A stretch of 58,620 nucleotides of DNA, the filler included, from Dugesia japonica (lineage: Eukaryota): assembly GCA_001938525.1 (NCBI GenBank). It is 5 parts of 5 records of this genome, joined end to end, with 100 filler letters (N's around TTAATTAATTAA, not from the genome) between each part and the next. Parts side by side here need not be neighbours in the genome. Positions count along the whole stretch, not along the records: positions 1 to 14,639 come from MQRL01610105.1; positions 14,740 to 23,848 come from MQRL01639755.1; positions 23,949 to 33,022 come from MQRL01597842.1; positions 33,123 to 49,485 come from MQRL01581765.1; 1 more part is not named here. One strand, written 5' to 3'. Position 1 is the first letter of the stretch. The number at the start of each line of letters is the position of its first letter. A model generated the notes under the pieces. The model ran no database searches. It saw nothing but the letters and a program-made list of their open reading frames with translations, and had not been told where the DNA came from. A program made the position numbers and the translations under genes. Positions 283 through 41,996 of this stretch are shown here, piece after piece.

Positions 283-1359
283 ATTTCCAACCAAAATATT
301 ACTTTTAAATTTCCCGCCAGAAGATTTTTTGTGAATTTCCCGCCAAAAAGATGTTTTTTTGAATTTCCCGCAAAACGTTTTTGGAATTTCCCACCAAAAA
401 ATAACAAGACTCCCCTCTTCCCCGTTCCAAAAATATGAAAATCCACCATTCCCAGTGAAAAAATATTCAAAAATACATCATTTTTTACAAAAATGACATT
501 ACTTTCATCTAATTCATCAATTTAAGTAATATACATCATTTTTACTTAAAATAAAGATTTCAAACCCTTATGACGTCACACATACCCGTCAGAAAAATTT
601 CAAATAAATATCCAAAATTCCAATAATTAATTGTCTTTCCACACATACCAGTCTGCCCCGCCCAAAAAATTTTTTAAAACTTTTATACTACTTACAAANN
701 NNNNNNNNNNNNNNNNNNNNNNATAAAATAAAAAATCAAAGCACATTCGACATACAAAATCTTCTCCATCACAATACCTCTCAAACAAACTATCAAACAA
801 CAAATTCCAACAAACACATACAAACCTACAGCCTTCCTAAAAATCGACCCACGATAACTCATACGAGTGGGCTAATGCGCCACCATAGTTGTAAGACAAA
901 CCATCCATCCAATCTCATAAGTCTTTTAGACAATATATAGACTAAAGTTTTGTCCAACATCAACCAAATCATAAAAACTTTAAAAAACTTATTTCCAAGA
1001 TCTCCAGCTCCTCCTTCTCATTTTCCCAACTCTTTCACACACACACACACACAAAAACTCAACTTGACCTACTTTTTAAAAACCACCTTAACAACGAAAC
1101 ACACACAAATTTTAAAATTTAAAAATACTCTTACAAACAAACAGCCAGGATCAAAAAAACTGATCCGATCAAAAAAAATTTTGATCCGATCAAAAATTTT
1201 TTGATCCCAAAAATCTTGGAAAAAAAAACCAACCCAAAAAACATAGCCCAGCGTAACGTGTTTCCAAGCCCCCCCCACCCCCCGGTCCCTTCGATAACAG
1301 CAAAATATGAAAGTGGGCTGAGAATCAGGCTGGGGCTAATGCGCCACTATCCCCCTACT
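283..1359 (-). mobile_element. ~1.1-kb Polinton-type terminal region, copy 1 (end at 1359, element extends leftwards)
   Basis: Its reverse complement aligns block by block with 7813-8750, e.g. TATGACGTCA, CCCACGATAACTCATA, CAATATATAGAC, TTGACCTACTTTTTAAAA and TGATCCGATCAAAAA. The minus strand starts AGTAG GGGG ATAGTGGC. AG-starting termini are typical of Polintons. Confidence 0.65.
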
Positions 1360-2224
1360 CATATTTCCTTGCAATTTTAATCAATTCTTTATTAAATTTA
1401 TTCTCTTCAGTAATTGGTAGTCTTTTATGGATGATNNNNNNNNNNNNNNNNNNNNNNNNNNNGAAGAAATCCTTGTATGTCTGTTCAGGTAAAGCTACCA
1501 ATTTATTTGTTTTGTCTGTTTGACTGATGATGATTGATTTTTAATTCTTTATTTCTTTAATAATTTAGTTTTCATTACTTTAGTTAGAAAAATATTAGTA
1601 TACCCTATTGTACGCAATTGAACATGATTCCTTATCCTTAACCTTATGATTATCCAGATTTAACTCTTTTACTTAAAGATTTATTATCATATTTAAAGGC
1701 CATCATTACTAATTATTATCACTGGTTCGAGTTGATTTTCATTACGATTCTTGGTTAAAAGGCACTTCATGAGGAAGTGGTGTTTTTTACTGCTTACCAG
1801 AAAAGGTGAAGTTATTTTAGTTCAAAAATCATTATTTTAATTTATCATGAACGAAAAACAATAGTAATCTAACTGGGGATTACTATTATGAAAGACTTTA
1901 ATTTATTATTTTACTTACCACCCAATTACCGAATGCTGATATGATTTTAGCATTATTTAATAGCAAAAATTCCCTTTATCAATAATCATTTTGTGAGCTT
2001 AATACAGCTATTGGTATCAACAAAATAAGAGATTTGAAAAGAAATAGACTGGATGACACATTAAACTACTAAAATATTAAGGAATGAATACCATATCGTT
2101 TTTAACAAATATATTTTAATTCGTATTTATAATTTCTCAATTGCCGTATTTTTCACGAGTCCCTGATTTTTCGATTAATAATATATATATATATATATAT
2201 ACATTAAATTACAAATTACATCAA

Positions 2225-3258
2225 TCGAACAAAAACTAACGTGGACTGCATCTCGATCTGGAGCAAACACTTAGGAATCCTCACGACGAACCGATAAAAA
2301 TTCTTCGATTATCTTCCGTAGATTCTTCTGAATCGGAAACTGTTGCATAGATTTATTAACGAGAGACTACATTTAGTTAATTTTCTAGCTCGAATTTAAA
2401 TTTCGCTTCAAAATTTTTGATTGTCTTCTGAAATTGAATCGCTACTTGTACCAGTTTTTCCTTACACCACCATTCTTTCTATTGGTTAATATGCATCGTA
2501 TGATTTTTCTAACGCTCTTATTGGCTAGATTGTCATCTGATTTCTTCTTATTGGTCAAAATTTTGGAATTCCAAACTTGCTGGAATCCAATTGGTTAACC
2601 TTAAAACCTTTGTAACTTCTTTCTTGGTCTTGCAACGATTATCTAACTTAAAATTTCGAAATCTGTAATTTTTTCATGACTAGAATTTTCTTAAACACTA
2701 ATTTTGTTCTTACTGGGAAGTCCTCGTTTTGTCATATTTTCATAAATTTAATTTTATTTTTATAATGAATCATTTTAATTCGTCTGATTCATTTTATTTA
2801 AAAAATTTATTATTTATTTTTCCTTTCTTCTTAATTTATTGATTACAATTTTTCATTTCTAAGTAGAAATTTAATCTTATTTTAATTTTCTTCAACAATT
2901 AATTTGTTTCATTTTTCTTGTTAATTATTAATTTCATTCTATTTTCTTTCCTTCATTTATTAAATGACTTTCTTTCGTTATTAATGGCCCTTTCTTTGTT
3001 TTCTTAGTCTGTTTACATTTTTATCATTTCCTTTCTACTTTGGTTTTATAATTTTCTTGTTGTGATAGCGGATTTTGCTGGTCGTTTCATATGTTTTAAT
3101 ATCTTAATCTCTGCTTTTCTTTCATGATATCTTTCATTGTCTGGTCTTTGACCTTCTATTTCCTGTTTTCTTAATTTCCCTTTCTTATATCTTCTTTTCC
3201 GATTTCTCCCTCACCCAACGCTATTATTTTTTCTTATACCAGGTGTTTCACCTAAACA
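2225..3258 (-). mobile_element. LTR-like dispersed repeat, copy A
   Basis: Homologous to 46065-47271: both share AACTAACG...CGATCTGGAGCAA, TACACC...TCTATTGGT and the terminal GGTGTTTCACCYMAACA. The minus strand begins TGTT. Four CCAAT boxes lie at about 2480-2595. Confidence 0.6.
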
Positions 3259-3354
3259 ATTTGATAAATTGAAATAATTATTTGATTATTTAAAATAATT
3301 ATTTGATTAATTAAAATAATTAAATAAAATCTTCAAATAACCAAAAATAATATT

Positions 3355-3672
3355 AATAGTTAGATGTGAGAGCACTAGACCAAGTCCCCTCCCACACACA
3401 CAGCAACACCATAAAATTCGCACCCAAATATACACCTACACTTTCCACACACAATATCACACAACCCCAATACCCACAAAAAACATTCAAACAAAATTAA
3501 AACAAAATTTAATATTCCCGCAAAAATTTAAATAACAATAAAAAAAATCCAAATTTGATCCGATCAAAAATCAATAAATTCACGATAACCAGTACACCAA
3601 ATCGTAGACCAGGACCAGGTTATCAGTTTTCGCTAGGGGTGACTTTGTCCAGTGCGCTCACATCTGACTACT
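3355..3672. mobile_element. 318-bp MITE with ~37-bp imperfect TIRs starting A(G/A)TAG and a 6-bp TSD
   Basis: The left end reads AATAGTTAGATGTGAGAGCACTAGACCAAGTC and the right end (reverse complement) reads AGTAGTCAGATGTGAGCGCACTGGACAAAGTC. AATATT flanks both sides (3349-3354, 3673-3678). The internal TTTGATCCGATCAAAAA is shared with 283-1359. Confidence 0.8.
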
Positions 3673-3908
3673 AATATTCATTTCAATAAATCAATTTGTC
3701 GTCAAATTTATAAATTAATACTCAAACAAATTAAATTTATTTGTGATAATCTCAATCAACTTTTTATATTGATTGTATAAAAAATATGGAACAGTGAGTT
3801 CTGATAAATCAGAAGAACAATAACTTATATTAATATTGAGCAATATTGATTGAATAAAATCAGATAACAATGTAAATTATACACAAATAAATTAAATATT
3901 CTAATAAA

Positions 3909-4886
3909 TTAATTTTTTTTTAAATAATCAATAAATAGTTCTGATTTGATTAATTGTTCTGCACTCGGTCTCTCATCTGGATTCGTATTCAAACAAGAAT
4001 TGATAAATCGATTCAATTTATTTGAAATGGGAAAATTCGTTTCAAGTTCGTATTTTGTACTAAATGGAATATGCGAAATTAGCTGATTTTCATGATGAAA
4101 TTGATTTTCACCTATATAATTAATAATTAAATAATAAAGAATATTTAAAAACTATTTAACCTGCTACCATCTCAACCATCACTTTACCAAATGACAAAAT
4201 ATCGATATTCTCTGAATATCTCCTTTGTTCTACTTTGATCAATTCTGGTGCCATGTAACCAATTGGTTCAGGTTTGTACTCTTGGTTTACTTGTACACTC
4301 GTCAATACAGTTTTATATTTTGATTTTCCGAAATCAATTAATTTTGCATGATTGAGTTCATCGATAACAATATTATCAGCTAGACAACACAAATAATAAA
4401 ATATTGTGCAGAGTAAAATCAAACATTTTATATCTCGATGAATAATTCCTAATTTATGCAATTCATTTATTTGTGTCAAGATTTCATATGAAATTTTCAC
4501 TATTTCTTGTTCCGATAAATATTTCACTTTGTCCAAATAAGATCTGAGAGATTCCTGAATAATGTCAAATACAAATATTATCAACATAATTTCAATAGTA
4601 AAATAAAATCAACTCCAGACAAATATTCCATGCCAATGCAAATGTTTTCTCCATCTCTGAATAATCCAGAATAATTCATGATATTTCTTGATGAATTGAG
4701 TTTGGAATAAATATTTATATCTCGATAGAGATCTTCATCAATTCTGATTTGTTTTTTCAAAGGAATTTGCTTGTTGGATTTTTTATCTCGACAAACATAA
4801 ATTCTAGCAAATCCTCCTCGACCGAGAGATCTCAATATCTCGATATCATCGATGCTGAATGTATAAATTGTATTTGCCAATCACAT
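3909..4886 (-). CDS. Ser/Thr protein kinase, 4 exons (possibly pseudogenised: ATG is followed directly by TGA)
   Basis: The motifs GRGGFA, PLK, MEYL, HRDIK, DFG, YMAPE and NPDERPSAEQL join in frame after removing GT-AG introns at 4555-4613, 4380-4424 and 4112-4160. The stop is at 3909. Confidence 0.9.
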
Positions 4887-5182
4887 TTATCTGATTGGTT
4901 AATTAATTTAACAATTTGAAATGATTACAAATAATATTTTATGTTGAGAGAACATTTTTATTTATTTTATCTTTCACATCAAACATTTTCATTCTATTCT
5001 TTTCAAACTAACAAAATTTGTTCATTTTTTCAAAATAATTCTTTTAAAATCATAGAAAAATTGTTGAAGACAAACAAAAAGTTCAAGAAACAAATGGACA
5101 ATTTAATTTGAATATTCTCATTGAAATTTATTAAATTAAAACAAATAAATCAATACGAATATCACAATGCAACATAACAAAC

Positions 5183-5945
5183 TCACCTCTTCACAATTTC
5201 TATGATAAAATCATCTTCAAATTTGTCTTCATCATTTAGTTTGTGATCTCCTCCTGGCTTGATGCAATACAAATGTTTCATGTCCACTTTGAGTCTTGTA
5301 GAAATTGATTGTTTTGCTTTGATTATTGTTTCTGGTTTGTAAGGGATAAAATTTTTTATATATTTTCCATTCATTTGTATTTTAATTGTAAATTTATTGA
5401 TTGTACTGAATAAATATATTCAATAATTCATAAATTTATCCAATCAAATATCACCATTTATCAATCCTCTTATTCAAATCAGAATCACTGAAAGATCTCA
5501 ATAAATGTTGATTCAACCATCTTAATGAAAATATTCATCATTGAAATATCTCACAATCATCATTGCATCTCACAATTTCAGCCAATATCGCCAATCATTG
5601 CTGGAATCAATCAAATATTTCACAAAATAATCCAAAGCATCGATTCTATCAANNNNNNNNNNNNNNNNNNNNNNNNNNNNNNNNNNNNNNNNNNNNNNNN
5701 NNNNNNNNNATTTATTTGTTTTATTGTTGATTTGTTGTCTAATAATAGAAAAATCCCACAATGCAGCACGTCTGAATAACACAAATCAATTAATAATATA
5801 AATATTTTTCAATTAAATAATATTTTTATTTAATCGATAAATGGAATAATCAATATCAAATGAGGGAGGACAATCATGGCTGCAAATATCATTTGATAAA
5901 TTATTATATTTTGCAATGATATTTATGATCAATCCTGTCAACATG
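5183..5945 (-). CDS. Multi-exon gene (5' part unresolved or decayed) ending in a ubiquitin-like domain
   Basis: Exons ...WRYWLKL | WLNQHLLRSF...IDKC | TINKFTIKIQMNGK...ETIIKAKQSISTRLKV...KLNDEDK join in frame through ~50-nt GT-AG introns. The last exon has a beta-grasp-like pattern. An N gap lies inside the gene. Confidence 0.45.
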
Positions 5946-6480
5946 TTTGTATGTGGTCAATATTGATCTGGATTGATCACAAATATGCATGTTCCAATGA
6001 TTTGTGCCACCACAATGTCATCCATCATTCATTCAATCAAACTTGCATCGCAAATTGAAAATATTGATAAAATATCCTCACAACACTAAATGATCAATCA
6101 ATAACAAATCAATTGTGTCACACAAATATCAATCTCACTCATTCTCATATAGATTCATCACAAATCTCAAATAATCATTACAAATATCTATAATGCGATA
6201 AGTCATTTCAAAAGAAAATAAATTTATCGAATTGAGAAATGAGGAGGGGAAATCTGACAAATTTTTATTCAATTTGTTATCAATTGTATCATTTGATGAG
6301 ATAATTTGCCTGCAATAAATTATAATTGATTAATTGTGAAATATTTCCATCAATCAATCACTTGATTTGATCAATTAAAATTGCTAATTTTTTTTTTGTT
6401 GATTTATTTTTGTTATTATCACGAATTTGATCAATACTAAATGCAAAATAATCAATCAATAATCACAATGCAATCAATGC

Positions 6481-7137: not shown

Positions 7138-7425
7138 TTATCAATATTAAATAATCTGAAAGAAACAATCACATTTGTATATTGATAAAATATTAATTAA
7201 ATTTTGTTAAAATTTTTAATAATACTTCTATTGTTAAAACAATTTTGATATAAATAGATATAAAATATTCATTATAACAAAATGAAATATTTTAATTTTT
7301 TAATTACAATTTAATGAAAACTTATTTAACTACACTTATTTTTATAATTGCTAATATTTTAACATAAATTAAATCATATTAACTTATATATATGATTGTG
7401 TGTGTGATCTTTAATATATTTTGTT

Positions 7426-7656
7426 AGTAGTTTTAAAATGGGCTGAATCGGCCCCATGCTATTTTTTTCATTTTTTCGCCGTACCCAAAATTGTCACTTT
7501 TACGGGTTTTCTGTTCCATAGGAGTAAAAAAATATGAAACGTGTTAAAATTAGGAAATTTAAAAATAAAAATAAAAATTATGAAAAATAACATTTAGAAA
7601 CGGCTCAAAAATGATAAAAACAGTACAAGGCCGATTCAGCCCATTTTAAAACTACT
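7426..7656. mobile_element. 231-bp cassette bounded by perfect 28-bp inverted repeats starting AGTAG
   Basis: AGTAGTTTTAAAATGGGCTGAATCGGCC lies at 7426 and its exact reverse complement at 7629-7656. There is no TSD. Confidence 0.8.
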
Positions 7657-7812
7657 TTACTTTTATAAATTTACATTATTTTTAATAAATAAGATAAATA
7701 ATAATAAAAAGTTATTTAAATAATAAAAAAAGACATGCCAGCGCTACGAAGAAATAATAATTTCAATTTACATCCAATTATAAGGAGAAATAGGATAAAT
7801 AGATCGCCCCCT

Positions 7813-8750
7813 AGTCGATAGATAGTGGCACACGGGCACAATTTTTTTGGGCACAATTTTCTAAATCTCGGAAACACATTACGCTTGAGCTGCGTTTTTT
7901 TAGACATGATTTTTGTGCTCGTATCAAAAATTTTTTGATCGGATCCAATTTTTTTTTGATCGTATCAGTTTGTTTTATCCTGAAAGTGTATGTGTGTATT
8001 TTTAAATTTTAAATTTTGTGTGTGTTTGGGTTGCAAAGGTGGTTTTTAAAAAGTAGGTCAAGTTGAATTTGTGTGTGTGGTTGTGTGTGTGTAATACTGG
8101 AAAAAACGAGGAGAAGGAGCTAGAGATCTTGGAGATCATTTTTTTGTGTTTTTGAAGATTTGTTAGTGGTTGGACAAAAATTTGGTCTATATATTGTCTA
8201 AAGGACTTATAAGTTTGGATGGATGGTTGTCGTTACAAGGGTAGTGGCACACGGGCACAGTCATATGAGTTATCGTGGGTAGATTTTATGGAGGCTGTAG
8301 GTTAGTATGTGGTTGATGGTTTGATGGAGAATTAATGTAATTGGGAAGATGTTGGTTGTCGAATGTGCTTTGATTTTTTATTTTAAGAGCTTGAATTTGA
8401 TTGGTTTATTTTGTAAGTATTATAAAAGTGTTAAAAAAAATTTCGTGAGGTGGAGGTTGGTATGTGTAGTGAGAATTAATTATCGGATTTTATAAAATTT
8501 ATTTGAAATTTTTCTGTCGGGTGGTTATGACGTCATAATTTTTTGAAATCTTTATTTTGGTTAAAAATGCTGTATTTTGCTTATATTGATGAATTTAATG
8601 AAAGTAATGTTATTTTAATATATTTGGTTATTTTTTCAGTATTTTGAACAGGGGAGTGTTGTTTTTTAATATTTTCGAACGGGGAAGAGGGGAGTCTTGA
8701 AAACTGTTTTGGCGGAAAATTCAATAAAATATTTTGGTTGGAAAATTTCC
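7813..8750 (+). mobile_element. Polinton-type terminal region, copy 2
   Basis: Starts AGTCG ATAG ATAGTGGCACACGGGCAC and is the inverted homolog of 283-1359. The homology stops where the next AGTAG cassette begins (8752). Confidence 0.65.
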
Positions 8751-8751
8751 A

Positions 8752-8975
8752 AGTAGTTGTTAAATGGGTAGGATGACACCTATAGCATTTTTTTGGATTT
8801 TTTCACCATGTCCAAAATGGTTGTTTTGGTGGGTTTTTCCATTTAATGAAGGAAAACCCAAAATTTGAATCAATTAGTTAAATTTATTAAATTAAATAAA
8901 TGGAACCATGCAAAAAACGGCGAAAACATCCAAAAAAAACTCCACAAGTGCCATCCTACCCAATGAACAACTACT
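8752..8975. mobile_element. 224-bp cassette bounded by imperfect 28-bp inverted repeats starting AGTAG; probable left end of the capsid-encoding Polinton
   Basis: The left end reads AGTAGTTGTTAAATGGGTAGGATGACAC and the right end (reverse complement) reads AGTAGTTGTTCATTGGGTAGGATGGCAC. The ~65 bp downstream match the ~65 bp after 7656. Confidence 0.7.
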
Positions 8976-9299
8976 ACACTTTAAAAAATTTGCATTATTT
9001 TCAAAAAATAAGATAAATAATAATAAAAAGTGATTTAAAATGATAATTTAAATAAAGAGAATAATACATTATACTATATTTAGAGTCTCCCATGAGGGAC
9101 TTTATTTTTAATAACTATGTACAATTCAATTAAATTTTCGTTTACCACTTATATATTTTAAATAATTAATGAAAATAAAAATGTGTTACTATATTTAGAG
9201 TCTCCCGCGAGTGACTCTATTTTTAGTAATCATATAATTTTTTAATCAATTTAATTGGTTAATGAGTTTTCAAATAAATATTATAATAAGCTTAAGAAA

Positions 9300-10571
9300 A
9301 TGGCTACATCTGAGTAAAAATCCAAGCTTAATTTGAATTATAATAAAGAATTTAAACATGATATTAAGAAAAGCGATATATTAAAAATTTCTCCAACATC
9401 TAGTTCTATTTCGAATTTAGATAAAGACATGGTTTTCCAATCTTTACAATCTTCAAGTCCTTTAGATATTTGCAACGCACGAATATATTATAAAATTGAA
9501 ATAACTCTTAATACAGATAAAGATGATATAACTTTAGAAAATAATTTCTTTCCTAATTTATTTAGTAATATAAGATTGAAAATATTTTCAACATAAGTAG
9601 AATCTGTTTTAAATCTAGGAGTATATTCATCGATGATAAACTTTATTTTAACTGATTCTGATTATAAAAAAGAATAAGGAAAAATGACTTTATGGATTCC
9701 AGATAACAGTGCTGGAACAAATGATGTTACAGGAGAGGATATTAATACTGGTTATTATAAAAGAAAATTATTATATAATACCACAGAGAAATTTGAAGGA
9801 TATTTTGATTTAAAATATTTANTCGGATTTCTACAGAATTATGATAGAGTTATACATAATGTATGTATCAAATTAATATGCAACAGACAAGTAAAAAACA
9901 AATTTCTATTTTATGGAGCAGACAAATTAACAGCAAAATTAAAGTTAACAACGATAGAATTACATAAACCTGAGTGGACGCTTAATCCAAGATCAGAAGT
10001 AAGACTATTAGAGAGATTAAATACAAATAAATCTATATATGCAAATTATTTAAATATAATTTGTTCTGTTATATATATGGGTGAAGGATCAACATATTCT
10101 TTTAAATTAGCAAATTTAGCTTATAGGCCAAGATATATTTTAATTGGTTTTAAAAATACGGATATTTCTTTTCAAAAGAATAATAATTTATTTATAGTTA
10201 CAGATGGAACCAGTAGTTTAAAATCGATACAAATACAGTTAAATAATACATATTATCCAGTCAACAGAATGGTGTTTAATGTAGCAAATAACGAAATGTT
10301 ATTTCTTTTTAGTTCATATGTAAATTGCTGAAAAGAATTTAAAGTCAAACCACAACTTAGTTTACAAGATTTCAATAAATTATATCCACTATTTTGTATT
10401 GATACGTCAGCACAAGACGATAAATTGGCGATTAATAATGTTGATGTAACTTTACATTGTACAAAAGATACAGGTTTCAAAGCTAAATTATATTGTTTAA
10501 TTCTTGAAGAAAAGAAAATTGAAATGAGATTAAGTGGAGGAAAAATAGGTATAATAGAAAATGTTAGATGA
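9300..10571 (+). pseudogene. Polinton/adintovirus double jelly-roll major capsid protein
   Basis: Motifs include LENNFFPNLFSNIRL, LWIPD...NTGYYKRK, GFLQNYDRV, RPRYILIGF, QIQLNNTYYP and YPLFCIDTSAQDDKL..NVDVTL. There are several premature stops (9596, ~9677, 10331). Confidence 0.8.
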
Positions 10572-10594
10572 AATGCCTAATTTTTATAAAATGA

Positions 10595-12102
10595 ATGAAC
10601 AAAATTGGTATTGTAATGTTTGTAATTCTTCTACTTTACTTAAACATAAAGCTAGACATGAAAAAAGCAGATAAACATATTAAAAATCTTAATTCTCCTG
10701 TTGAAAAAATAATTATAAACCAATCAAATACATCATCTACGATGACTAATCGTAAACTAAAACAATTAGATAAACCCATAATTAATAAATTTCCTTGGGA
10801 GAAAACTGGTGGAGATATTCAATCTTCTAAAGTTACTTCATTATTATTAAAACCGTTTACATTTGAAAAATATCCTGGTGAAAGACATTTATTTAGGCAT
10901 AATTATTCAGGAACAAATACAAGATTAGATATTAGATTAGATGAAAATAATAGTCATCTACCAGGAGAAGAACCAATAAATAAAGTTCATTCTGCAACAA
11001 GTAAACACGATATTGCATATAAATCAAAAGATTTAAGAGATAGACATATTGCTGATGTAAATTTAATTCATGATTTAAATAATATTGAAAATTCTTCATT
11101 TAAAAAAAAGATTCAAAAAGCTTTAGTTAAATTAGCTGTGAAAGATAAAATATTAGTTGGAGGAGGATTAAATAGGTCTGCGGTGTCACAACACCTAAAC
11201 TCTAGAGTTGCTAAAAATATAGCTAATCAAAAGATTATTGAACAGGCAATGCAAGAACGTATAGACAAAGATGATAATACTACTAAAATTATTGAACCTC
11301 AAGATGATCAAATAAATTATGCAGCCGAATTACATCATGAATATAGAAAAACAAAAAGATTTTTAAAAGTACAAATACATAATAAAGATCACACATGGCG
11401 ATGCGATATTGCAGATATGGTTGAAAAATCTAATGATCAGGAAAAGTATAGATATATTCTAGTTTGTAAAGATTTAAATACAAGATATGCTTTTTGCGTT
11501 CCAATGATAAGAATCTTTAAGAGAAGCTTATGAAAATATATTTGAAGAAAATAATAGAATACCATATTATATTTGGTTTGATAAAGAATCGGCAATAAAA
11601 CCAAAATAAATTTCTCAATGAGAATAATATTCAATTATATCACACAGAAAATGAAGGCAAATCAGATTTTGCTGAAAGATTAAAAAAAACTTTGAAAAAT
11701 AAAATGTTTAAATAATTTACATCAATTGGGAAACATGAATGGAATAAAGCATTATTAGATAAAATAGTTAATGAATATAATAATGCAATTCATTCAAGTA
11801 TTAAGTTATCGCCAAAAGAAGCATCAGAAAATCCTGAGAAAATAAAAGATATAATTAATCTACATAATCACGAGAACTATAATATAATGAAAAAACAAAA
11901 GTTTCAAATAAGTAATAGAGTAAGAATATTCAAATATAAAAATAAATTTGAAAAAGGATATACAACAAAATTTACTAATGATATTTTTATAATAACTAAA
12001 ATTTATCATACTAAACCAATTATATACGGAATAACTGATTTAAATAATGAAGATATATTAGGAAGGTTTTATGATAATGAATTAATAAAAACTAATTTTT
12101 AG
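10595..12102 (+). pseudogene. Parvovirus-VP1-type phospholipase A2 domain fused to a Polinton rve integrase
   Basis: One ORF carries HNYSGTNTRLDIRL...EPINKVHSATSKHDIAY...RHIAD and then AAELHHEYRK...HTWRCDIADM...YRYILVCKDLNTRYAF. After frameshifts come YHTENEGKSDFAERL, YNNAIHSSIKLSP and the C-terminal RVRI..YKNKFEKGYT..GRFYDNEL. Confidence 0.88.
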
Positions 12103-12110
12103 GTGAATTA

Positions 12111-12896
12111 CTAAAATAAATCTTCAATAATTTCTTCTTTTTCCCGGTCTAAATAAATATAATTATATTTATCTTTCCAATGATTTATAATAAAATTATC
12201 AAATGTCATTTTATCTGGTTCTATATTACTAATTAAATCATGATAAACCATATCTTTATCTTTTTTATTTAATTTGAAAAATATAAAACAATTAGAATTA
12301 TTTCTAATTGAATTTTTATCTAAAGCGCAATAAGTTTGAGAGATATAAATAACATAACAATTATTATGTCTCCCTCTACCAAAATATGATTTCTGAATAT
12401 CTTGATTTTTCATATTCACCATATCGTCAAATATAACTAAATTCTTTTTTATTTTTAGGAAGATTATCACAATAAATAATATCTTCTGGTTTATTAGAAA
12501 ATGTAACATCAACTTTATTTTCCTCATCTATATATTCATTTTTATTTGTTATATCAGAATTAATAATATTTTTTTATACCATTCAACAATACTATACGCA
12601 GTTTTAACTTCATCTGGTATTCTATCTTGATTATTAAATATATTTAAAATAGCTTTCTGAGTTAAGTTATTCTCTAAATCTTCTTTTAATATTTGTAATT
12701 CAACTTGATTTATAGTTGTAGAATAAAATATTAAATTGTTATAATCCATAAAATTATCAGCTAATAACATCTTCATTAATAATACATTCTTCCCACAACC
12801 AGAAAATCCTATGATTAATAATCTAAAATTATTCGGTAAAATTTTATTATTAAATAATGTTTTATTTTTATTTCATATCGGTAAATCTGCAGCCAT
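12111..12896 (-). pseudogene. A32/FtsK-HerA-type DNA packaging ATPase
   Basis: Walker A RLLIIGFSGCGK, Walker B LVIFDD, and GRHNNCYVIYISQ and IRNN motifs. It has a premature stop and frameshifts. Confidence 0.9.
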
Positions 12897-12915
12897 TTTA
12901 TAATTTTTAAAAATA

Positions 12916-13478
12916 ATGACTAATATAACTGAAACTGAATTAAAAGAATTAATAGATTCTAATAAATCTAAATCTGTTTTAATAAATAATGAAAAATATT
13001 GGATTGGTAAGAAAATTAAAGAAACAGTTAAAAATGAGGAAACTAAAGAAGGGGGAATATTACCGCTTTTAGCTTTGATTCCTTTTTTGCAAAAGCCGCA
13101 GTTGTTGTAGGCGGATTAGAAGCAGTAGCGGGAGGAGTAGCAACAGCTGTTGCAAAAGCTAGAGAAGCTTCAAAATTAGGTGTCGAAAGACAAAAGGTTG
13201 AAGAAGAATTAAAGCAATTAAAAGAAGCAGGAAATGAAACTGTTCAACCATTTAAAGGAAAAAGGATTGTTGAAAGTTATAAAGGTAACGGAATTTATTT
13301 AAATCTTTATCAAGGAAAAGGTGTATATGATTTTATAAAGAACTTAATTAATCAATCAAACTTGCCTGATTCAGTAAAATCAGTAATAAATGAAACAGGT
13401 AAAAAATTAAAATTAGGTGGCATTGTTAAAATAAAAGAATCAAAACATGGTTTAGGAATATAAATGAGACCGTATTAA
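12916..13478 (+). pseudogene. Adenovirus pX-like core/membrane-active virion protein
   Basis: EGGILPLLALIP is followed, after a frameshift, by AAVVVGGLEAVAGGVATAVAKA. The C-terminus has GNGIYL, GKGVY and GLGI*MRPY repeats. Confidence 0.6.
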
Positions 13479-13565
13479 GTTAATATATATTTAAAAATGT
13501 ATGAAGATAGAATTACATTATTAAAACAATTAATCAAAAAACAAGATAAATATAATAATAAAGAA

Positions 13566-13605
13566 AGTAGGTAAATAGTAGCACACGGGCACAATTTCTA
13601 AATAC
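13566..13605 (+). mobile_element. AGTAG-type element end of the same subfamily as 7813
   Basis: Reads AGTAG GTAA ATAGTAGCACACGGGCACAATTTCTAAAT. It cuts off an ORF that starts at 13497. Confidence 0.6.
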
Positions 13606-14739: not shown

Positions 14740-14774
14740 ACATGTGATTCAATGAAACCAATGTGTTTAAGTAA

Positions 14775-17710: not shown

Positions 17711-17729
17711 CATATATCCATTAAAATTC

Positions 17730-20170: not shown

Positions 20171-20539
20171 TTTTATAATAACTCCGTAATAATTATAATA
20201 ATAATATTTATATAATAATAATGATAATAATAATTATATTTTCCAGTCCAGTACCTCAGAAATTATACTCTAATCATTTGTTTCGGCCGATTTATTACGT
20301 TATTATTTCTCCTCTATAACTTCAGAAATTTTCACTATTTTAATTCTTCCTTTTCTATAATTTTTTCACATTAAATGGTTTAGAATCTCTCTGGGCTGTG
20401 GTGTTCTAGCCCAACAAAATTATTTTTTTAAATTAGATTTTCTAATTTTTTAAAATAGTTTTATTGTTTTGTATTTTTAACTCATATTATTTTTATCTTT
20501 TTGACTGAAAAGTTTTTCACATTACTTATAGAATTATTA

Positions 20540-21240
20540 AATCAATTTCATTCACATTTGGATTTCGATGAATAATTTGTTCCATAAATTATATTATTTG
20601 TTTTAATCACAGTATCAAATTCATCGATAGTTATTTTATTAAAATTTGATACTCTTATGTCTTTTATCTATTTTACATTTATTCGATTCATCATTTTTCG
20701 CATAGCTCGACTCCCTAGAGCGGGATTTTCAATATAATTATAAACATATGATTTTGCTTTTATAAACTCAGTTTATTATTTCACTATTTGGTTTTTCATC
20801 TTTCATTTCAAACAAATTGTTCCCTAATAATGTCTTAACATTATTTAAATTTTCTTCACCAATAATTTCCACAAATATCGAATCAGGGTCTGAATAATGA
20901 ATTTTATATTTATTTAGAATTGCTACATCTAATTTATTATGTATAAAATCCTATATAATATTTTATTATACGTAAAATCATATATAATAACATATTATAT
21001 ATAAAACATGTATTTTGTTGGTTTCTTTCTGAAAATGTTTTTCATTTGTTACAATTACAACAATCACTCTTTTTCTTATATCTTCTAGTGTTTTTCCATA
21101 AAATGCATTGTTCAACAATTTGAAAAAATAATCTCCAAATGGATCTTTATTTCTTTTTGAATTGTTTCTCTGTTAAATATTAAACAAAATATATTCTTTT
21201 AACCATGATGATACAATTATTTTATATTGTCCATGCATCT
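20540..21240 (-). pseudogene. Polinton protein-primed DNA polymerase B, C-terminal remnant
   Basis: Manual translation gives SSWLKEYILFN...FFKLLNNAFYGK (motif B, ~21090-21210), then IHYSDPDSIFV (motif C, YxDTDS variant, ~20880), then MKDE...EFIKAKSY. It is absent from the ORF track because of stops and frameshifts. Confidence 0.85.
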
Positions 21241-21305
21241 TTTTTTTATTTTTATTTCATGTTTTAAATAAAGATCTAATAAACTTCCTAATACTACATA
21301 TTCTT

Positions 21306-21345
21306 AGTAGAGGGATAGTAGCAGTAAAGAACAGCACACATTTTT
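21306..21345 (+). mobile_element. AGTAG-type element end truncating the pPolB gene
   Basis: Reads AGTAG AGGG ATAGTAGC AGTAAAGAACAGCAC. I could not identify the other end. Confidence 0.5.
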
Positions 21346-22319
21346 TTGGGAAATTTTTTATAGGAATCCGGGCAAACCGTTCATGTTGTTTAAATAATAA
21401 GAAAATTTAAAAATTTTTATATCAATTTTTTTATGGGAATCCAGAGCATCAAAAATTTAAAAAATAATTTTTTCAATTTTTACAACATATAGTTATTTTT
21501 AGATATATCGACTCAGAATTTTACGGCGATCATTTTTGGTTTTCCCAGTATTTTGCACAAGATTTTTTCGAAAATATAATTTCTTCCCAGAATAGGTCCA
21601 GAAACTGTCTATTCGATAGAAAATTTTTTGCTGATTCTAAACATGTTCACCTAAAATCGCCAAAGCTAATACTTGATTAAATAAATGAAGTTTTGTGGTG
21701 AAAAAATCTCAAAAATCAGAGTTTAGTACTCGGAGCTCTGTGCACTGAGAACTACTATAGACTCAAATTTAGTATTACTTTACTCAATAGAAAAACGTGA
21801 CTGTACAAAATTAAAATATCGTCTCGGGAAAAATGTTTCCTAACGAATATGTACAGCCGCATTCCCCAAATTCGGTGACATTTTTCGAAAATATCAAAAG
21901 TACCTCAAAATTTATTGAAATTTATACTATTCGATAGGAAAATTTACGGTGAGTACGAATAACACGGTTAAAAATCAACAAACTTTATACATAAAGTTAT
22001 ATAGAAAAAACAAGTACTTTATTTGAGGATCCCTAGTGTCATTAAAAATAATAAAAACATACTATAAAAACTTAATAATAAGATAAAATCATTTTTTCAA
22101 AGTAAAAGATTTATTTAATAAAAATCTGATCAAGCTGTCTATTGTTTGATTATTGAACTGTTTGAAAATACTGAAAAAATTAATTAATTAATTAATTTAT
22201 ATTTAATAAATAAAATCTCTGGAATGGTGAACATGTTTATTTTGTGAAGATTCAGTCTATTATATACTCGGTTTCGATAATTTTGGTCAATTATTTACTT
22301 GGTTTAGGTAATACTGATC

Positions 22320-22580
22320 AATTATTTCCCCCTATTTTATCCTGTTTACCCTTATTTACCACTATTTTCCTTTATTAACCATATTTTTTATTATTTATCC
22401 CTATATATTCCCTATTTTTACCCCTTATTTACCCCTATTTTGCTTTATTAACCATATTTCAACGCTATCAATCTTGATTTGTCCTGTTTTGTCCTACTAA
22501 CCATATTTTACCCGATTTTGCCCAATTTTTCCATATTCTGCTCAATTTCCTCAAATTTTGTCGGATTTTCCTATATTTTC
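22320..22580. repeat. Degenerate ~10-bp tandem repeat (CCCTATTTTA-like)
   Basis: Periodic CCC/CCA-TATTTT units; a similar tract lies at 23040-23170. Confidence 0.75.
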
Positions 22581-36087: not shown

Positions 36088-37281
36088 TTGAATTTGATTT
36101 TGAAGCGTTCAAAAAGAAAGAAGAATTTCAAAGAAGAATCAATTGTTATTGAATTAAGAGTCTTGTTTTATGTGATTTAAATGAAGAAGAAAACAAATAA
36201 AACTGACATGGCGACTAACTAACATTTTGCGGTTGAATTAAAGATTATATGTCTGAAAATCCAATTGATAACCAATTAGTAGTAATTAAAAAAGAAAAAT
36301 CAACCGATTTGATTTTATACACAGAACAAGAAATAAATGAAAATAATAATATTGAAAATACTAACAAGAGGAAAAGAAAAACATTCAGATGTGATTTATC
36401 AGGTTTAGATAAGTTAGAAGCAATAAAACGGTATGAAAATGGTGAAACAATAAAACAAATTAGTTTTGATTTAAAAGTAACTCCAGCATTTATTTCCAAT
36501 TGGTGTCATAATAAAGAAAAATTAGAAAAAATTGTTGTCCGAATTTTCCGAAAATTTAATTCATGAAAATAAAGAAATAAATAAAACAAATAAAGCTAAC
36601 ATGGCTACCAGCGTATCAATGGATCTGCTTAACGAAGCAATATAAATAAGCAAACAAGTTGCCAGAATGTTCAAGAACCTGAAAGACGAAAAAGGGAAAA
36701 CAGAAAACAGAATCATTGTACGAACGATCGAGATGACAATATGCATCAAAAGTCAAGATATGTTAATAAAGTATATGATTAAAAAGACGATCTATGAAAA
36801 TGTGATAAAATATACTATTTCGATGAGAAGACGAACAAGTTTTATGAAGAACAAGAAGAAGATGAAACTTTGAACAAAAAAAAAATTGTCGAAATATTGA
36901 AGACGTTGAAAAAATTAAAAATTTCTAAAAGGGGGAATGTTAGATAATTTTAAAAATTTGCAAATATTTTTAAAAGTTAATGCAATGTTATTAGTTTAAA
37001 TTTTTTAATGTAAACAATTAGTAAAAAATTTTAATAATTCAAACTTATTGCTTTATTTTTTAAATTACTGTAAATTCAAAGTTTTAGATTTAAAAAATTT
37101 AATAAATTTGTTTAAATTTATTATTTATTCAAAAATATAAATTCGGAAAAGCAAGTTTTGAATGAAGAAGAAGAATTAATTGTAATTGAAATAAAGTATT
37201 GAATTAAAAGTCTTGTTTTAGTTGTCTTGTTTTTAGTCTAATTTTAGTTTAATTTAAATTTACAAAATAAATCTATTGACA
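36088..37281 (+). mobile_element. Small non-autonomous LTR element (truncated 5' LTR, PBS, HTH ORF, PPT, 3' LTR)
   Basis: The 5' LTR remnant ends TGACA at 36208, followed by PBS-like TGGCGAC. PPT AAAAGGGGGAA is at 36927-36937. The 3' LTR runs TGTTAG...TGACA (36938-37281). Both LTRs share GAAGAATYAATTGTWATTGAA and ATTGAATTAARAGTCTTGTTTTA. Confidence 0.65.
36249..36566 (+). CDS. psq/CENP-B N-terminal-type helix-turn-helix protein (continues frameshifted, acidic tail)
   Basis: Reads KRKRKTFRCDLSGLDKLEAIKRYENGETIKQISFDLKVTPAFISNWCHNKEKL. Confidence 0.7.
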   Translation: MSENPIDNQLVVIKKEKSTDLILYTEQEINENNNIENTNKRKRKTFRCDLSGLDKLEAIKRYENGETIKQISFDLKVTPAFISNWCHNKEKLEKIVVRIFRKFNS

Positions 37282-37534: not shown

Positions 37535-37690
37535 TTAGCACTCACTTAACTGGATCAATGAAATAAATAATTTGGCCGCTTTGAACAATCGACCGACGTC
37601 CCTTAAGAATCTGTCAAGATTGTCGCCTAACTTGAAAAGTCTCGGGTGTAACAAATCTGTTACTAAGTTTGAGCCTGACGTGGTTGCCAT
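37535..37690 (-). pseudogene. Gypsy PBS and gag N-terminus fragment
   Basis: PBS-like TGGCAACCACG at 37689-37679, followed by LLHPRLFKLGDNLDRFLRDVGRLF. Confidence 0.55.
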
Positions 37691-40600
37691 ATCAGCAAGA
37701 AAAACGCTATCTTCATCAAACATTTATTTATGACAAAGTTTCTATAAATTGAAAAACCGAATTAGAAAAGTTTTAATGTTCAAACAAATATACGCAATAA
37801 TTATTTTAATTATTTTCTTGGAATATTTTATATTTCAAAAACTTTATAAATATTTCAATTGCGCATATAAATTTGAAATCAAACAATTCCAGTATCATTC
37901 TCACATCCCCTTCTTTCTAAATCTTCTGATCTTTTCAACATTTCTTTCGATTGTCCGACCCATATCAGTTCGAATCAGATATCTTCGGGCATGTATCTTT
38001 TTACTACTAAGAATGGACCTATAAAGCGATCCTGATCCTTATTTCTTGTTTCCTCCTTGATAAGCACTGCATCTCCAATAGCGAATGTTTTCCTGTATGG
38101 GTACATAACCTTTGGTATATTGTCTACCTTCTTGAACTTTCATTGTCTAGGTGGAAACCATCTTTCTCTGCTAATTTTTCTACCAAACACCGTTTCTACC
38201 GGGCTTTTACCTGTTGTTTTCTGAACTGTCGTATTCATCGCAAATTCAATCTCTNGTTGAATTTCTGCCCAATTCTTTGCGTTTCTATCTGCTATTGATG
38301 CTCCAATTCAGACTCTGATAGTCCGCAATAACCTTTCTACCTGTCCATTCGTATTATTGTAATAAAGACTTGAGAAACATAGCTTAATATTCATCTCATC
38401 GGCAAATTTCTTCATTTCTTGTGATTAAAATACCTTACCACAATCTGTATGGATTTATCTCGGAGCTCCAACCTCTAATATCCAGTTATCTTTTAAAACA
38501 CGAGTTATTGACTCTTCATCTTGTTTTGCTGTTGCTGTCAATGATATATTTACTATTCTGATCGATAATAGCTACGATATATCTTTTTTTGGAAGTGTCT
38601 GGACATGGTCCTGCTATATCAATCTATATTCTCTGAAACAGTCTCAGCAACTCGGATTTTATAGTTTCTTCTTTAGTTTTAGTTGTTATGAGCTTCATAC
38701 GCTGACATGCTTCGCATCTGTCCACGATTTCCTTTACACTTCCCCACAACCTAGCTATGTCATAATGTTCTCTAATATATTTGGCAAAATTTTCTGTTCC
38801 TGTGTGTTTTAGCAACTGATGCATTTCTCAGATCATATCGGATTTTCTATCTGTTGGTAACTAAATCTTTCCGTTTTGTGTTAATATCTAATCAACTATC
38901 CATTGGAATCTCTCTTCATTACCATCTTTGATCTGTTCTCGCATTATTCGTATCTCTTTCTTATCTCTTTGCCATTTTGATGTCTCCGTTATTGTATTCA
39001 ATCGTCTCGTTTTTAATTTTCTCCTATAGCATCTTCGTGTGACATCATGCATTGTACACATGTGCCACATGCCTACCTTGAGAGAAAATCCGTATTGCCA
39101 TATCTGTCGCCTTTCTGATACTGTAAATCAATGTCTAATCTACTTAGGTAATTGATCCAATTTTGTAACTGTTATTGGTTTCTTTGTAGTTAACATAAAC
39201 AAAATCGCTTTATGGTCTGTTCGTAAGTGAATCTTCGCCAATATAAGTAGTGACTGGAATGGTTGCAAAAATAGAATATCGCCAGCAGCTCATTTCTTGT
39301 TATACAATACCCCAATTCGTGGCTATTCATTTTCTGTGATCCATACACTATTACTTTTTCTTGTCCATTGTTCTAAATTTGTGATAATACGGCACCAATA
39401 GTATTGTAGCTTGCATCAGTATCCAGTATGAATTCTGTTCTGACAACTGGAAACACTACAATTAATGGCTTCGTTAACACTTCTTTTATATCTCTGAATG
39501 ATTGTTCGCAGCTCTCTGTCCATATTAACTTCTTATTATTTACACTGCACAGTTTTTAAAGTTCTCTAGCTTTCTTTGTTTAATATTTTATAAATCTTAT
39601 GTAATAGCAACATATCCCCAAGAAACTCTTCAATCCTTTCACGCATTTCGTCCTTTCATATGTCTGTATTGCAACAAATTTTGCTGGATTAGTCTGAACT
39701 TCTTTATCACTTATGATGTGCCCCAAAAAATTGATCTCTTTTCTTAGCAATTAACATTTTGACGGGCTTAAACGTAGTCCTGCTTGATGTATTTTACTAA
39801 ATACTTCATTCAATGTTTTGTAATGCTCTTCCCAGTTTTCTGAATATTTTAGAATATCATCTAAATACACCGTTGTTCCCTTTGTTGTACCTAAAACCTT
39901 TTTTCAAGAGTTCCTGGAATGCCCCAGGCACCGCAGCTATGCAAAACGGCATTTTATTGAAGCAGTATTGATCTGACTTTGTTGAAAAGGCTATTTTATC
40001 TTTTGACTCATCTTCTAACTCAACTTGAGAGTAAGCATTACCTAAATCTAATTAGCTGAAGAATTTTGACCCACTTAATCTATTCAGAATAATTTTCTAT
40101 ATTTGGCATTGGAAATGCTTGTCTTTCCGTAATAGCGTTCAGCTGTCAAAAATTGAGACAGATACGAATGTCTTTCTTTTCTTTTTTCCAGATACATATT
40201 AACGAGGTGTTCCATGTTGAATTACACCTTCGGATAATTACATTTCAAAAAAATTACGTACTCCTTCGTTTATCTTATCCTCTAGGTTCATAGGTATTCT
40301 CCATGGCTTAACATTTATAGGTCCTCCTTTTGTTAAAATTTATGTTTCAACAGTTTTGTGCATCCTCTATTCCATTTATCTGCCATAAAGATATTTGAAT
40401 GTTTGTTTATCAACTCCTTTATCGTGATATTTTCCAATGTATTTATCTTACTCAAAGCTGTTTGAGATCTTTCTTCATCTGTAATAATCCTTCCAAAATG
40501 CGACTCGATATTGCAAATTTGATCTTGATTATCTTTTTCTGCTGTATCTAACCAATGCCGTTCTAATCCAAAACTGGTCTTCAACTCAATGCCGCCAATT

Positions 40601-41820
40601 ATGCTACGGATTACCTTTTCCACAACTATGAAATTAATTCATTTAGTCGTATCGCCGATCTTCACTTCCACCTCAAATCTCCATTTGGTACTTAATGAAA
40701 TGTTGTTACGGCACCGTAGTCTGTCCTTGGTTGTTAAAAACGGGATATCCTTGAACTTGTTAAACACATCCATCCCATCGCATTAATTCTTGCTACGGTA
40801 TCCAGTAGGCATTCAAACTCTATGTTTCGGATCTTTATCGCAATACTTGTTCTACCCTGCATTATATCATATCTAATCACACCTTTTCCCCATTCTTCTA
40901 CTGTAGCGATTGTTGGTTCACGGATGTTTCTCCCTTGATTACTAATATCCCTTTCTTTAAAAAATTATAAACGCGTTCTTTTACATCCTCCTCTATATTA
41001 TTGATATGACTGCTTTTACCATAGCTATCAATATTTTGGGGATCACCCATTAGATTTTGAGTTCTATAGCTCCTACCATTTCTCCTGTTAGTGGAACCTC
41101 TCCGTCTGGGTTTCTCTTTGATTTATATACTTTTGAGTCATTTTTGTTGTTACTATATCTAACGTCTTCATATCTGTCGTCCTCATATACCTTGTTTCAT
41201 CATTTTCCACTGCATTGATGTTAACATGCCTACCCAGAAAAAGAGGCTTTTTACCTCATATTTCTTATATTCTGAAGTATACTCGTTCCATCTCTTGTAT
41301 TTCATCTTTGTAAAACAGTCTTCGCTTTTATGACCTTTCTTGTTGCATTTTCCGCACTTTATCTTGTTGCACTATCTTCTTATATGCACTACATTTCCAC
41401 ATGCATAGCATGTAGGAGACTTTCTGTCTGGTCACTCCCGACTTATGTGTCCCAATTTGTGACAGTTCCAACATTTAACTTTCTCTATTCTAAACTCACT
41501 TCTAGTATTTGGCCCTTTGTAGGTTGATTCCTGCTTCCTTGTTACCATTCTTTTTGGTTCCGTGTATAATGCCTCCTTGTAGCTACGCATCACGGTTATT
41601 CATTCTGTCTTTTTCGCAATTCTTGAAACGTCTCTGATTATTTCTTTTATTTCTTACGGTTCGGAAACTTTTTTCATTAGAATCTATTTCTTTGCTTTCT
41701 TCTGTGCCCTTGCGTTCTGATATTAACGACTCTTTTGACAGATTATGGATAAGCAGTTTTTCTACATCGTGGAAGAATAAATTCTTCTAGGTCTTCAAAA
41801 AAGTCTTTTGGTCTTTTCAT
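37691..41820 (-). mobile_element. Decayed near-complete Ty3/Gypsy element (gag, PR, RT, RH, IN, PPT, start of 3' LTR)
   Basis: Zinc knuckle CYACGN at ~41400, protease ECLLDT at ~40800, RT RICLNF and VYLDD at ~39860, RH LDTDAS at ~39420, and integrase HQLLKHTG..CEAC, TDCGK and NGQVER. PPT AGAAAGAAGGGGA is followed by TG at 37905. Confidence 0.93.
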
Positions 41821-41967
41821 CAGTAGTCGTAGCATATATTATAAACCGTAAAATACGGAAATTGAATAAATCTTAATGAAATTAGTGACGAATTATTAGT
41901 CTATACTTTAATCGCGGTTCTTTACATTTTAATGAAATTGCTTATGGACTTAATACATATTTACTAA

Positions 41968-41996
41968 CATTCCCAGTGCGCTACTATCCATCTAAT
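41968..41996 (-). mobile_element. AGTAG-type element end
   Basis: The reverse complement reads ATTAG ATGG ATAGTAGCGCACTGGGAA. A second AGTAGT at 41822 coincides with the point where the Gypsy gag is cut off. Confidence 0.45.

What the first reader, a model, noticed from the sequence alone, without database searches (positions are those of the whole stretch)
1330..41996. A family of AGTAG-N4-ATAGT(A/G)GC element ends that repeatedly cuts Polinton genes and other elements
Seen: one end architecture (constant AGTAG, 4 free bases, ATAGTRGC, then a variable ~10-mer) occurs at 1359(-), 7813(+), 13566(+), 21306(+) and 41996(-). Related forms occur at 3355/3672 and, more weakly, at 35436(+) and 36087(-). 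They are spread over three independent scaffolds. Several mark truncation points: an ORF after the pX gene, the pPolB gene, a Gypsy gag and an LTR. Established: Polinton termini start with AG and insertions make 6-bp TSDs. Inference: these are a diversified set of Polinton ends or satellite elements that nest in one another, with a constant integrase-processing site and a variable specificity box.
Basis: partly seen in the sequence, partly recalled or inferred. Interest (0 to 1): 0.7.

Follow-up and report, generated by a model that had tools for sequence, protein, structure and literature searches.

The report
Nested Polinton-type ends with doubled box
The shared motif marks real ends of virus-like Polinton-type mobile elements that have jumped into one another, which is largely expected, but two of them repeat a family-specific 17-letter box a second time inside the element, which may be how each family recognises its own ends.

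Summary
The motif is real: 5 matches with up to 1 mismatch against 0.03 expected. At 1359 and 7813 it starts two ~950-bp units (A, B), about 75-80% alike, with unrelated outer flanks and contig depth about a thousand times the lowest neighbouring bins. At 21306 it interrupts a Polinton polymerase gene, a further piece of which lies 2.4 kb on. At 13566 only a ~40-bp remnant closes a Polinton gene block. A 318-bp miniature element (3355-3672) has related ends, a 6/6 flanking repeat and motifs shared only with A and B. New here: the 17-bp box behind the end recurs 429-474 bp inside A and B, and all 5 differences between A and B are mirrored at both sites. Two missed units with the canonical AGTAGT end (7426, 8752) complete a nest. 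Not supported: 36087, a 35436/36087 pair, and cutting of an LTR. Best reading: nested, deleted Polinton-type ends of several subfamilies, at least one gene-less. The integrase-site and specificity roles are untested. No genome was held, so only one target duplication is clean.

The parts
231..1359 (-). Unit A: non-coding, begins with the end motif (1359-1343); inner limit not known
   Evidence: 75% identical to unit B over 870 columns; the alignment starts at the motif and the outer flanks differ; depth 280,000-354,000 in bin 780-1235 in X1, X2, X7, inflated by short tandem repeats
869..885 (-). Internal direct copy of A's terminal 17-bp box, 474 bp from the end
   Evidence: 16/17 identical to A's terminal box, 11/17 to B's internal box
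310..398 (-). Four E2F-like sites in A (label recalled); a fifth at 8708-8719 in B; TGACGTCA at 571-578 and 8528-8535
   Evidence: 5 matches against 0.23 expected, all in A or B; 2 against 0.31, 4 of 100 shuffles reach it
3355..3672 (.). 318-bp miniature inverted-repeat element with related ends, flanked by AATATT on both sides (3349-3354, 3673-3678)
   Evidence: Ends 25/30 identical, flank 6/6, background 75 of 55,685 position pairs; GTTATCGTG occurs 3 times in the window (A, B, this element) and TTTGATCGGATC 4 times (A twice, B, this element)
7426..7720 (+). Unit P1: AGTAGT end, 231-bp foldback (7426-7656), then ~65 bp shared with P2
   Evidence: fold z -8.2; low depth in bin 7164-7619
7813..8751 (+). 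Unit B: end motif 7813-7829, box 7823-7839; stops where P2 begins
   Evidence: depth 95,000-134,000 in bin 8076-8531 against 128-223 in bin 7164-7619 (X1, X2, X7)
8242..8258 (+). Internal direct copy of B's terminal box, 429 bp from the end
   Evidence: 17/17 identical to B's terminal box; the same 5 positions differ between A and B at both sites
8752..9039 (+). Unit P2: AGTAGT end, 224-bp foldback (8752-8975), leading into the Polinton genes
   Evidence: 68% identical to P1 over 299 columns, alignment, fold z -6.3
9300..13565 (.). Decayed Polinton gene block: double-jelly-roll capsid, PLA2-like domain plus integrase, packaging ATPase (- strand), pX-like ORF (name recalled, no Pfam hit), start of a short ORF
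   Evidence: PF21738 E 7.8e-12, PF08398 E 5.1e-7, PF04665 E 0.0019 below cut-off; PLA2+rve relatives align over 10805-12099; no hit for the pX-like piece
13566..13605 (+). Short remnant of a B-type end, followed by low-copy DNA
   Evidence: 87.5% over 32 bp to 7813-7844; depth falls from 4,401-8,266 to 564-970 to 45-67; contigs of depth 12-15 begin at 13580 and 13617
20250..21305 (-). Broken 3' part of a Polinton DNA polymerase B gene, ending at the 21306 motif
   Evidence: Relatives align over 20645-21244 (E down to 1e-25) and weakly on to 21300 (E 0.022 in a restricted search)
21306..23725 (+). Foreign DNA interrupting pPolB; begins with the motif; composite, with two N gaps; a weaker related end at 23176
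   Evidence: ATTCTT at 21300-21305 and 23726-23731 is a candidate 6-bp duplication, but the far end is not an inverted copy; 23176 ranks 8th in the profile
23762..23848 (-). Upstream piece of a pPolB gene at the scaffold end
   Evidence: P0160 residues 659-686, E 0.003 in the whole window, 8e-5 restricted
35436..35462 (+). Related end; no partner or duplication found
   Evidence: Rank 6; no flank match with 36087 or 41996
41970..41996 (-). Core end pointing into a Gypsy element that lacks its 5' LTR
   Evidence: Rank 5; gag-like reading about 170 bp further; no LTR copy

Best explanation
The motif is the outer end of Polinton/Maverick-type elements of several subfamilies. Shown: it is the boundary of a very abundant repeat (A, B), it ends a gene-less 318-bp element with a 6-bp flanking repeat, and it abuts broken Polinton DNA. 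Inferred: a Polinton integrase supplied from intact copies elsewhere inserted these ends into older Polinton copies (B into P1, P2 into B, a B-type end into P2's genes, another end into pPolB), and later deletions left only ends and stumps. Inferred: AGTAG is the common terminus used for integration and protein-primed initiation. The 17-bp box, present at the end and again 429-474 bp inside, is most likely a binding site for an element-encoded protein that differs between subfamilies, which would force both copies to change together.
For: Motif enrichment and leave-one-out ranks. A/B homology starts at the motif, with unrelated flanks. Depth rises about a thousandfold from neighbouring bins into A and B in three runs of three samples. 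6/6 flanking repeat around the miniature element, background 0.13%, and motifs shared only with A and B. pPolB homology on both sides of 21306-23725. Canonical AGTAGT ends at 7426 and 8752 ahead of Polinton genes. Vertebrate Mavericks end in (AGT)2//(ACT)2 with 6-bp duplications and have repeats of 46-1,447 bp (PMC8097293, passages and supplement rows). 5 of 5 box differences are mirrored. A loose end at 876 (19 contigs, X1) shows a further variant at the internal box.
Against: Only 1 of 9 tested end pairs has a 6/6 flank match, and that 6-mer is a palindrome, so it can also be read as a 4-bp or 2-bp duplication with longer ends. The five core ends have G or A, not T, at position 6, unlike the canonical motif. 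No core end has a partner end in the window. The far side of the pPolB insertion is not an inverted end, about 80 codons are missing between the two polymerase pieces, and the candidate 6-mer occurs once more inside the stretch. No loose end was listed at 1359, 7813 or 13566 (24 shown, 13,767 not shown), so reads support the boundaries only at 456-bp resolution. The covariation rests on two copies. One of the laid runs may be the source of the assembly.
Confidence: 0.68

Rival explanations
1. Polinton ends, but nothing more: A and B are ordinary long terminal repeats of coding Polintons, and the doubled box comes from occasional template switching or conversion between two short repeats during replication, with no role in recognition. 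This is a variant of the best explanation that drops its last step, so the two confidences overlap.
For: The length (~950 bp or more) is within the published range. Promoter-like motifs lie in A and B. B's depth is only 3-5 times that of the best-covered gene bin, and the tool warns that contig depth cannot rank parts. Repeat-only remnants of Polintons are known in C. elegans (bioRxiv 2024.01.15.575659, passages).
Against: The shared stretch is only 17 bp and its surroundings at the two sites are unrelated, which is short for conversion (own knowledge). B's depth is 10-21 times the median of the 9 gene bins (computed). The 318-bp relative has no room for genes.
Confidence: 0.3
2. The ends belong to a cut-and-paste transposon group unrelated to Polintons (for example one with TAG ends and doubled transposase sites), and lie beside Polinton genes only because the region is a dump of mobile DNA.
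For: The palindromic flank allows a 4-bp or 2-bp reading (sequence). An outer plus an inner direct repeat is the known design of Sleeping Beauty-type ends (PMC5224488, passages). Other transposon remnants lie nearby, such as a CENP-B-type domain at 36237-36566.
Against: The base before AGTAG is G, T, A, T, G in the five core ends, so conservation starts at A and there is no TA+C end. Ginger ends are TGTNR with 4-bp duplications (PMC2836005, passages). No transposase was found inside any core end by six-frame translation. 3 of 5 core ends abut Polinton-like DNA, which is 10.7% of the window, though the sites are not independent.
Confidence: 0.17
3. Some junctions (7813, 8752, 13566) are misjoins of a fragmented short-read assembly at shared repeat ends, so the nest is partly an artefact.
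For: The window is made of short concatenated scaffolds with many gaps. The best runs hold at most 0.43 of the sampled words. No listed contig bridges these junctions (32 pieces shown, 110,172 not shown).
Against: Contigs from two runs join the 13566 remnant's right side to low-copy DNA, and join P1 to its left flank with 0-2 differences (table 8). The junctions join unlike sequences, not overlapping copies.
Confidence: 0.08

Closest known systems
Polinton/Maverick elements of animals (adintoviruses with a PLA2-like gene)
   Same: AG start, AGTAGT ends in P1 and P2, a 6-bp flanking repeat in one element, long non-coding ends, and neighbouring capsid, PLA2-integrase, ATPase and polymerase genes.
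   Different: The five core ends depart from (AGT)2 at position 6 and carry a conserved ATAGTRGC block. Here the genes lie outside the ends, not inside. A doubled, covarying box was not found in the passages read.
Non-autonomous Polintons and repeat-only remnants (C. elegans Polinton_CE_TIR; Repbase non-autonomous Polintons, recalled)
   Same: Ends that persist without genes and in rearranged clusters.
   Different: The 318-bp element is far shorter than a Polinton and the A/B family is very abundant. The anole study reports an apparent absence of non-autonomous copies.
IR/DR ends of Sleeping Beauty-type Tc1/mariner transposons
   Same: One binding box at the end and a direct copy further in.
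   Different: No TA target or CAG end (those features recalled), spacing of 429-474 bp, no transposase found; binding here is untested. It may work alike, but it is not a member.
Adenovirus terminal repeat (recalled)
   Same: Short terminal repeat for jump-back initiation, a conserved block near bases 10-17, and transcription-factor sites further in. The jump-back role of Maverick end repeats is proposed in PMC8097293.
   Different: Integrated, and no protein binding was tested.

Membership tests
Polinton/Maverick | 5'-AG...CT-3' termini with a short repeat such as (AGT)2 | tested here: inconclusive
   P1, P2 and 3672 have AGTAGT. Core ends read AGTAGG, AGTAGA, AGTCGA or ATTAGA.
Polinton/Maverick | 6-bp target-site duplication | tested here: inconclusive
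   Met for 3355-3672 (6/6, palindromic); 1 of 9 pairs tested. One further candidate at 21306/23726 has no matching far end.
Polinton/Maverick | Terminal inverted repeats of tens to about 1,500 bp at both ends | tested here: inconclusive
   Met for the miniature element (25/30). No partner end for any of the five core ends in the window.
Polinton/Maverick | pPolB, integrase, ATPase and capsid genes between the ends | tested here: not met
   The genes are present but lie outside the core ends. They follow the P2 end at 8752, whose second end is missing.
Non-autonomous derivative | Many short gene-less copies with paired ends and duplications genome-wide | not testable with these tools
   No genome held; contig depth is no copy number.
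Tc1/mariner IR/DR | Outer and inner direct repeat in each end | tested here: met
   A 16/17, B 17/17. Not found within 1.6 kb for 13566, 21306, 35436 or 41996 (best 10-12/17).
Tc1/mariner IR/DR | TA target and CAG-type terminus (recalled) | tested here: not met
   The outer flanks of the five core ends do not end in TA+C.
Gypsy LTR | Second direct copy at the other end of the retroelement | tested here: not met
   The region around 41996 does not match the putative 3' LTR from 37907.

The most novel reading that the evidence does not exclude
A and B are an extremely abundant, gene-less parasite of a virus-like Polinton. Its ends carry an outer and an inner family-specific box that act as a lock for the matching integrase or terminal protein, it has a 318-bp miniature form, and it inserts by preference into Polinton genomes and breaks them. 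That would be a Sleeping Beauty-like end design and a hyperparasite in a protein-primed virus-like element.
Probability: 0.2. Interest if true: 0.75.

Novelty: new variant of a known kind. Interest (0 to 1): 0.42.

Why it matters
How Polinton ends are recognised is inferred only by analogy with adenoviruses. A box that is doubled inside the end and changes in step between subfamilies is a natural marker of a protein-binding site, and it can be tested on a genome by asking whether box type follows the integrase or polymerase tree. A miniature element with Polinton-type ends would show how little DNA this machinery needs. Without those results the finding is a decayed nest of a known class of element.

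Tried and rejected
No whole genome was held, so the genome-wide scan could not be run. Motif scans of viral contigs (37 loci) and metagenome contigs (31 loci) gave chance-like hits: none of the 68 loci had more than a 20-41 bp match to the window, and tblastx printed nothing. A 22-mer shared by A and B was absent from viral and prokaryotic contigs. Searches for related Polinton loci in viral contigs found none or two unrelated phage-like contigs. A search for longer relatives of the PLA2-integrase ORF found none. Pfam did not recognise the broken polymerase frames directly. No tRNA or Rfam match. 36087 was rejected as a family end. 35436/36087 and 35436/41996 were rejected as pairs. An LTR reading of 41996 was rejected. 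No empty site for 3355-3672 was among the 15 joints shown (868 not shown), and a paralogous region gave none. The repeated stretch outside A (1360-1581) could not be identified, so it is not counted as Polinton. Run X8 holds 0.04 of the words and little of B; it is not used as evidence. Earlier-finding look-ups by place and sequence were empty. Ten literature searches showed no paper describing a doubled box or a miniature element at Polinton ends. The original Polinton paper was not held, and subscription journals and Repbase are not covered.
Full report
Observation. The window is AT-rich eukaryote-type DNA made of five scaffolds joined by N44-TTAATTAATTAA-N44 linkers (that these are artificial joins is inference). 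No genome was held. The pattern AGTAG-N4-ATAGTRGC is exact at 1359(-), 13566(+) and 21306(+) and has one mismatch at 7813(+) and 41996(-): 5 matches against 0.03 expected. Because the pattern was drawn from these sites, I ran a leave-one-out profile. Each held-out core end ranked within the top 4-7 of 113,754 positions, training ends included. 35436 ranked 6th, 3672 9th, 3355 18th and 36087 27,407th. The family is real; 36087 is not part of it.

Units A and B. 1359(-) and 7813(+) face away from each other, so they are two elements, not a pair. They are 75% identical over 870 columns. The alignment begins at the motif and the outer flanks are unrelated. I laid contigs of four public runs on 780-14441 only, at 80% likeness; 21306, 35436 and 41996 were not covered. 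In X1, X2 and X7, depth was 280,000-354,000 in bin 780-1235 and 95,000-134,000 in bin 8076-8531. It was 98-129 in bin 1692-2147 and 128-223 in bin 7164-7619. A and B therefore belong to a very abundant repeat whose edge falls in the bins that hold the motif. This is 456-bp resolution: no loose end at the motif was among the 24 shown (13,767 not shown), and the A bin is inflated by short tandem repeats. The nine gene bins had 4,061-39,838. B exceeds their median 10-21 times but the best bin only 3-5 times. The tool warns that such depth is no copy number and cannot rank parts, so this is weak evidence that A and B outnumber coding elements. The stretch outside A (1360-1581) is itself repeated (loose ends at 1581 in 35-39 contigs) and remains unidentified.

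The doubled box. The 17 bases from position 11 of the end recur as a direct repeat 474 bp inside A (16/17) and 429 bp inside B (17/17), at the aligned position. Between A and B the boxes match only 12/17 and 11/17. The same 5 of 10 positions differ at the terminal and at the internal site. A loose end at 876 (19 contigs in X1) shows another variant at the internal site, in front of conserved sequence. No such inner copy was found within 1.6 kb of 13566, 21306, 35436 or 41996 (best 10-12/17). A and B also hold all 5 window matches to an E2F-like 12-mer (0.23 expected) and both TGACGTCA sites; the labels are recalled.

The miniature element. 3355-3672 has ends 25/30 alike and AATATT on both sides. 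It is the only 6/6 match among 9 end pairs tested, against a background of 75 in 55,685. The 6-mer is a palindrome, so 4-bp or 2-bp readings with longer ends are possible. The variable base before AGTAG in the other ends favours 6 bp. Its interior shares 31 and 25 9-mers with A and B against a null mean of 6.2 and maximum of 18 in 506 segments; for longer words the excess with B is within the null tail. It shares GTTATCGTG and TTTGATCGGATC with A and B and with nothing else in the window. This ties the 6-bp footprint to the A/B family.

The nest. Each folds back over about 230 bp (z -8.2 and -6.3). They share about 65 bp beyond the foldback, so they are left ends of longer elements, not free miniature elements. 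P2 leads into a decayed Polinton block: double-jelly-roll capsid, PLA2-like domain with integrase, ATPase and a pX-like ORF (the pX name is recalled and has no Pfam hit). The order on one strand is P1, B, P2 with genes, then the 13566 end. 13566 matches B over 32 bp. Depth falls from 4,401-8,266 to 564-970 and then 45-67, and contigs of depth 12-15 start at 13580 and 13617. It is thus a ~40-bp stump between Polinton genes and low-copy DNA.

The polymerase cut. Polymerase relatives align to 20645-21244(-) and weakly on to 21300, 5 bp from the motif. An upstream piece of a polymerase lies at 23762-23848(-). The gene is thus interrupted by about 2.4 kb that starts at the motif. ATTCTT stands at 21300-21305 and at 23726-23731 as a candidate duplication. 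Against it: the far end is not an inverted copy, the 6-mer occurs once more at 22736, about 80 codons are missing and the stretch has two gaps. 41996 points into a Gypsy element about 170 bp before gag, and no 5' LTR copy is there. The claimed gag and LTR truncations are not shown.

Mechanism. Most likely (0.68) these are ends of Polinton-type elements of several subfamilies, inserted into older copies by an integrase acting in trans and then cut down by deletions. The boundaries, the one duplication and the broken targets are shown. The integrase, the order of events and the role of AGTAG are inferred. The covarying box is best explained as a family-specific protein-binding site, since 17 bp is short for conversion (own knowledge), but this rests on two copies. 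Rivals are plain terminal repeats with a functionless doubled box (0.3, overlapping the best reading), an unrelated cut-and-paste group (0.17) and assembly misjoins (0.08). Three of five core ends abut Polinton-like DNA, which is 10.7% of the window. The sites are not independent, so target preference is a lead only.

Comparison with what is known. Vertebrate Mavericks end in (AGT)2//(ACT)2 or (AG)3//(CT)3, have 6-bp duplications and repeats of 46-1,447 bp, and reach at most a few hundred copies (PMC8097293: passages, section 8 and two supplement rows; its logo figure S2 could not be seen and may bear on inner conservation). PLA2-like genes mark alpha-type adintovirus modules (PMC8502044, passages). 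Repeat-only remnants and clustered Polintons are described in C. elegans (bioRxiv 2024.01.15.575659, passages; supplements closed). Nematode Polintons are given 100-1,500-bp repeats and 5-8-bp duplications (bioRxiv 2023.08.22.554363, passages). Non-autonomous copies appeared absent in anole (PMC3014272, passages). Outer and inner direct repeats are the design of Sleeping Beauty ends (PMC5224488, passages). Ginger ends differ (PMC2836005, passages). Passages of PMC6431247 and bioRxiv 2025.02.07.637071 added nothing on this point, and a look-up in PMC7913693 found no passage. Kapitonov and Jurka 2006 and Repbase non-autonomous Polintons are recalled only. Ten searches showed no description of a doubled box or of a miniature element at Polinton ends. 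Unchecked notes from this scan report nested and gene-less Polinton-type elements in other genomes; they are leads, not support.

Verdict. A real family of Polinton-type ends in a decayed nest: a new variant of a known kind. The doubled, covarying box and the 318-bp relative are the parts worth following. Interest 0.42.

Noticed in passing
window 28579-30561 (-): Open 660-codon reading frame with no convincing family; one relative at 55% identity, from Logan assemblies only.
   Followed up: partly
window 3972-7163: Region with a protein-kinase fragment (4156-4608) that is multi-copy at about 80-85% likeness in all four runs and much deeper in X8; possibly an expanded or mobile kinase family.
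   Followed up: no
window 1360-1581 (-): Repeated stretch outside unit A with a short reading frame whose stop codon lies in the end motif; family unidentified.
   Followed up: partly
window 52337-53398: Element with 222-bp inverted arms, 95% complementary, around a transposase-like fragment (the fragment was judged by eye).
   Followed up: no
window 27215-27411, 45477-45597, 51645-52196: Near-perfect foldbacks or inverted arms; the first has a single N at its centre and may be an assembly artefact.
   Followed up: no
window 16260-17740 and 30690-30970: Degenerate 30-bp-period arrays; the first is present in both orientations.
   Followed up: no
window 23176-23725: A weaker AGTAG-type end followed by a repeat with several GTGAAATTTCACAC-like units, inside the stretch that interrupts pPolB.
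   Followed up: partly
window 17745-20165 (+) and 38000-41830 (-): Two decayed Gypsy elements, 63% alike over 1.4 kb of pol; the second has a purine tract and a TG start at 37907 but no 5' LTR.
   Followed up: partly
window 36237-36566 (+): CENP-B-type DNA-binding domain, probably a pogo-like transposase remnant.
   Followed up: no
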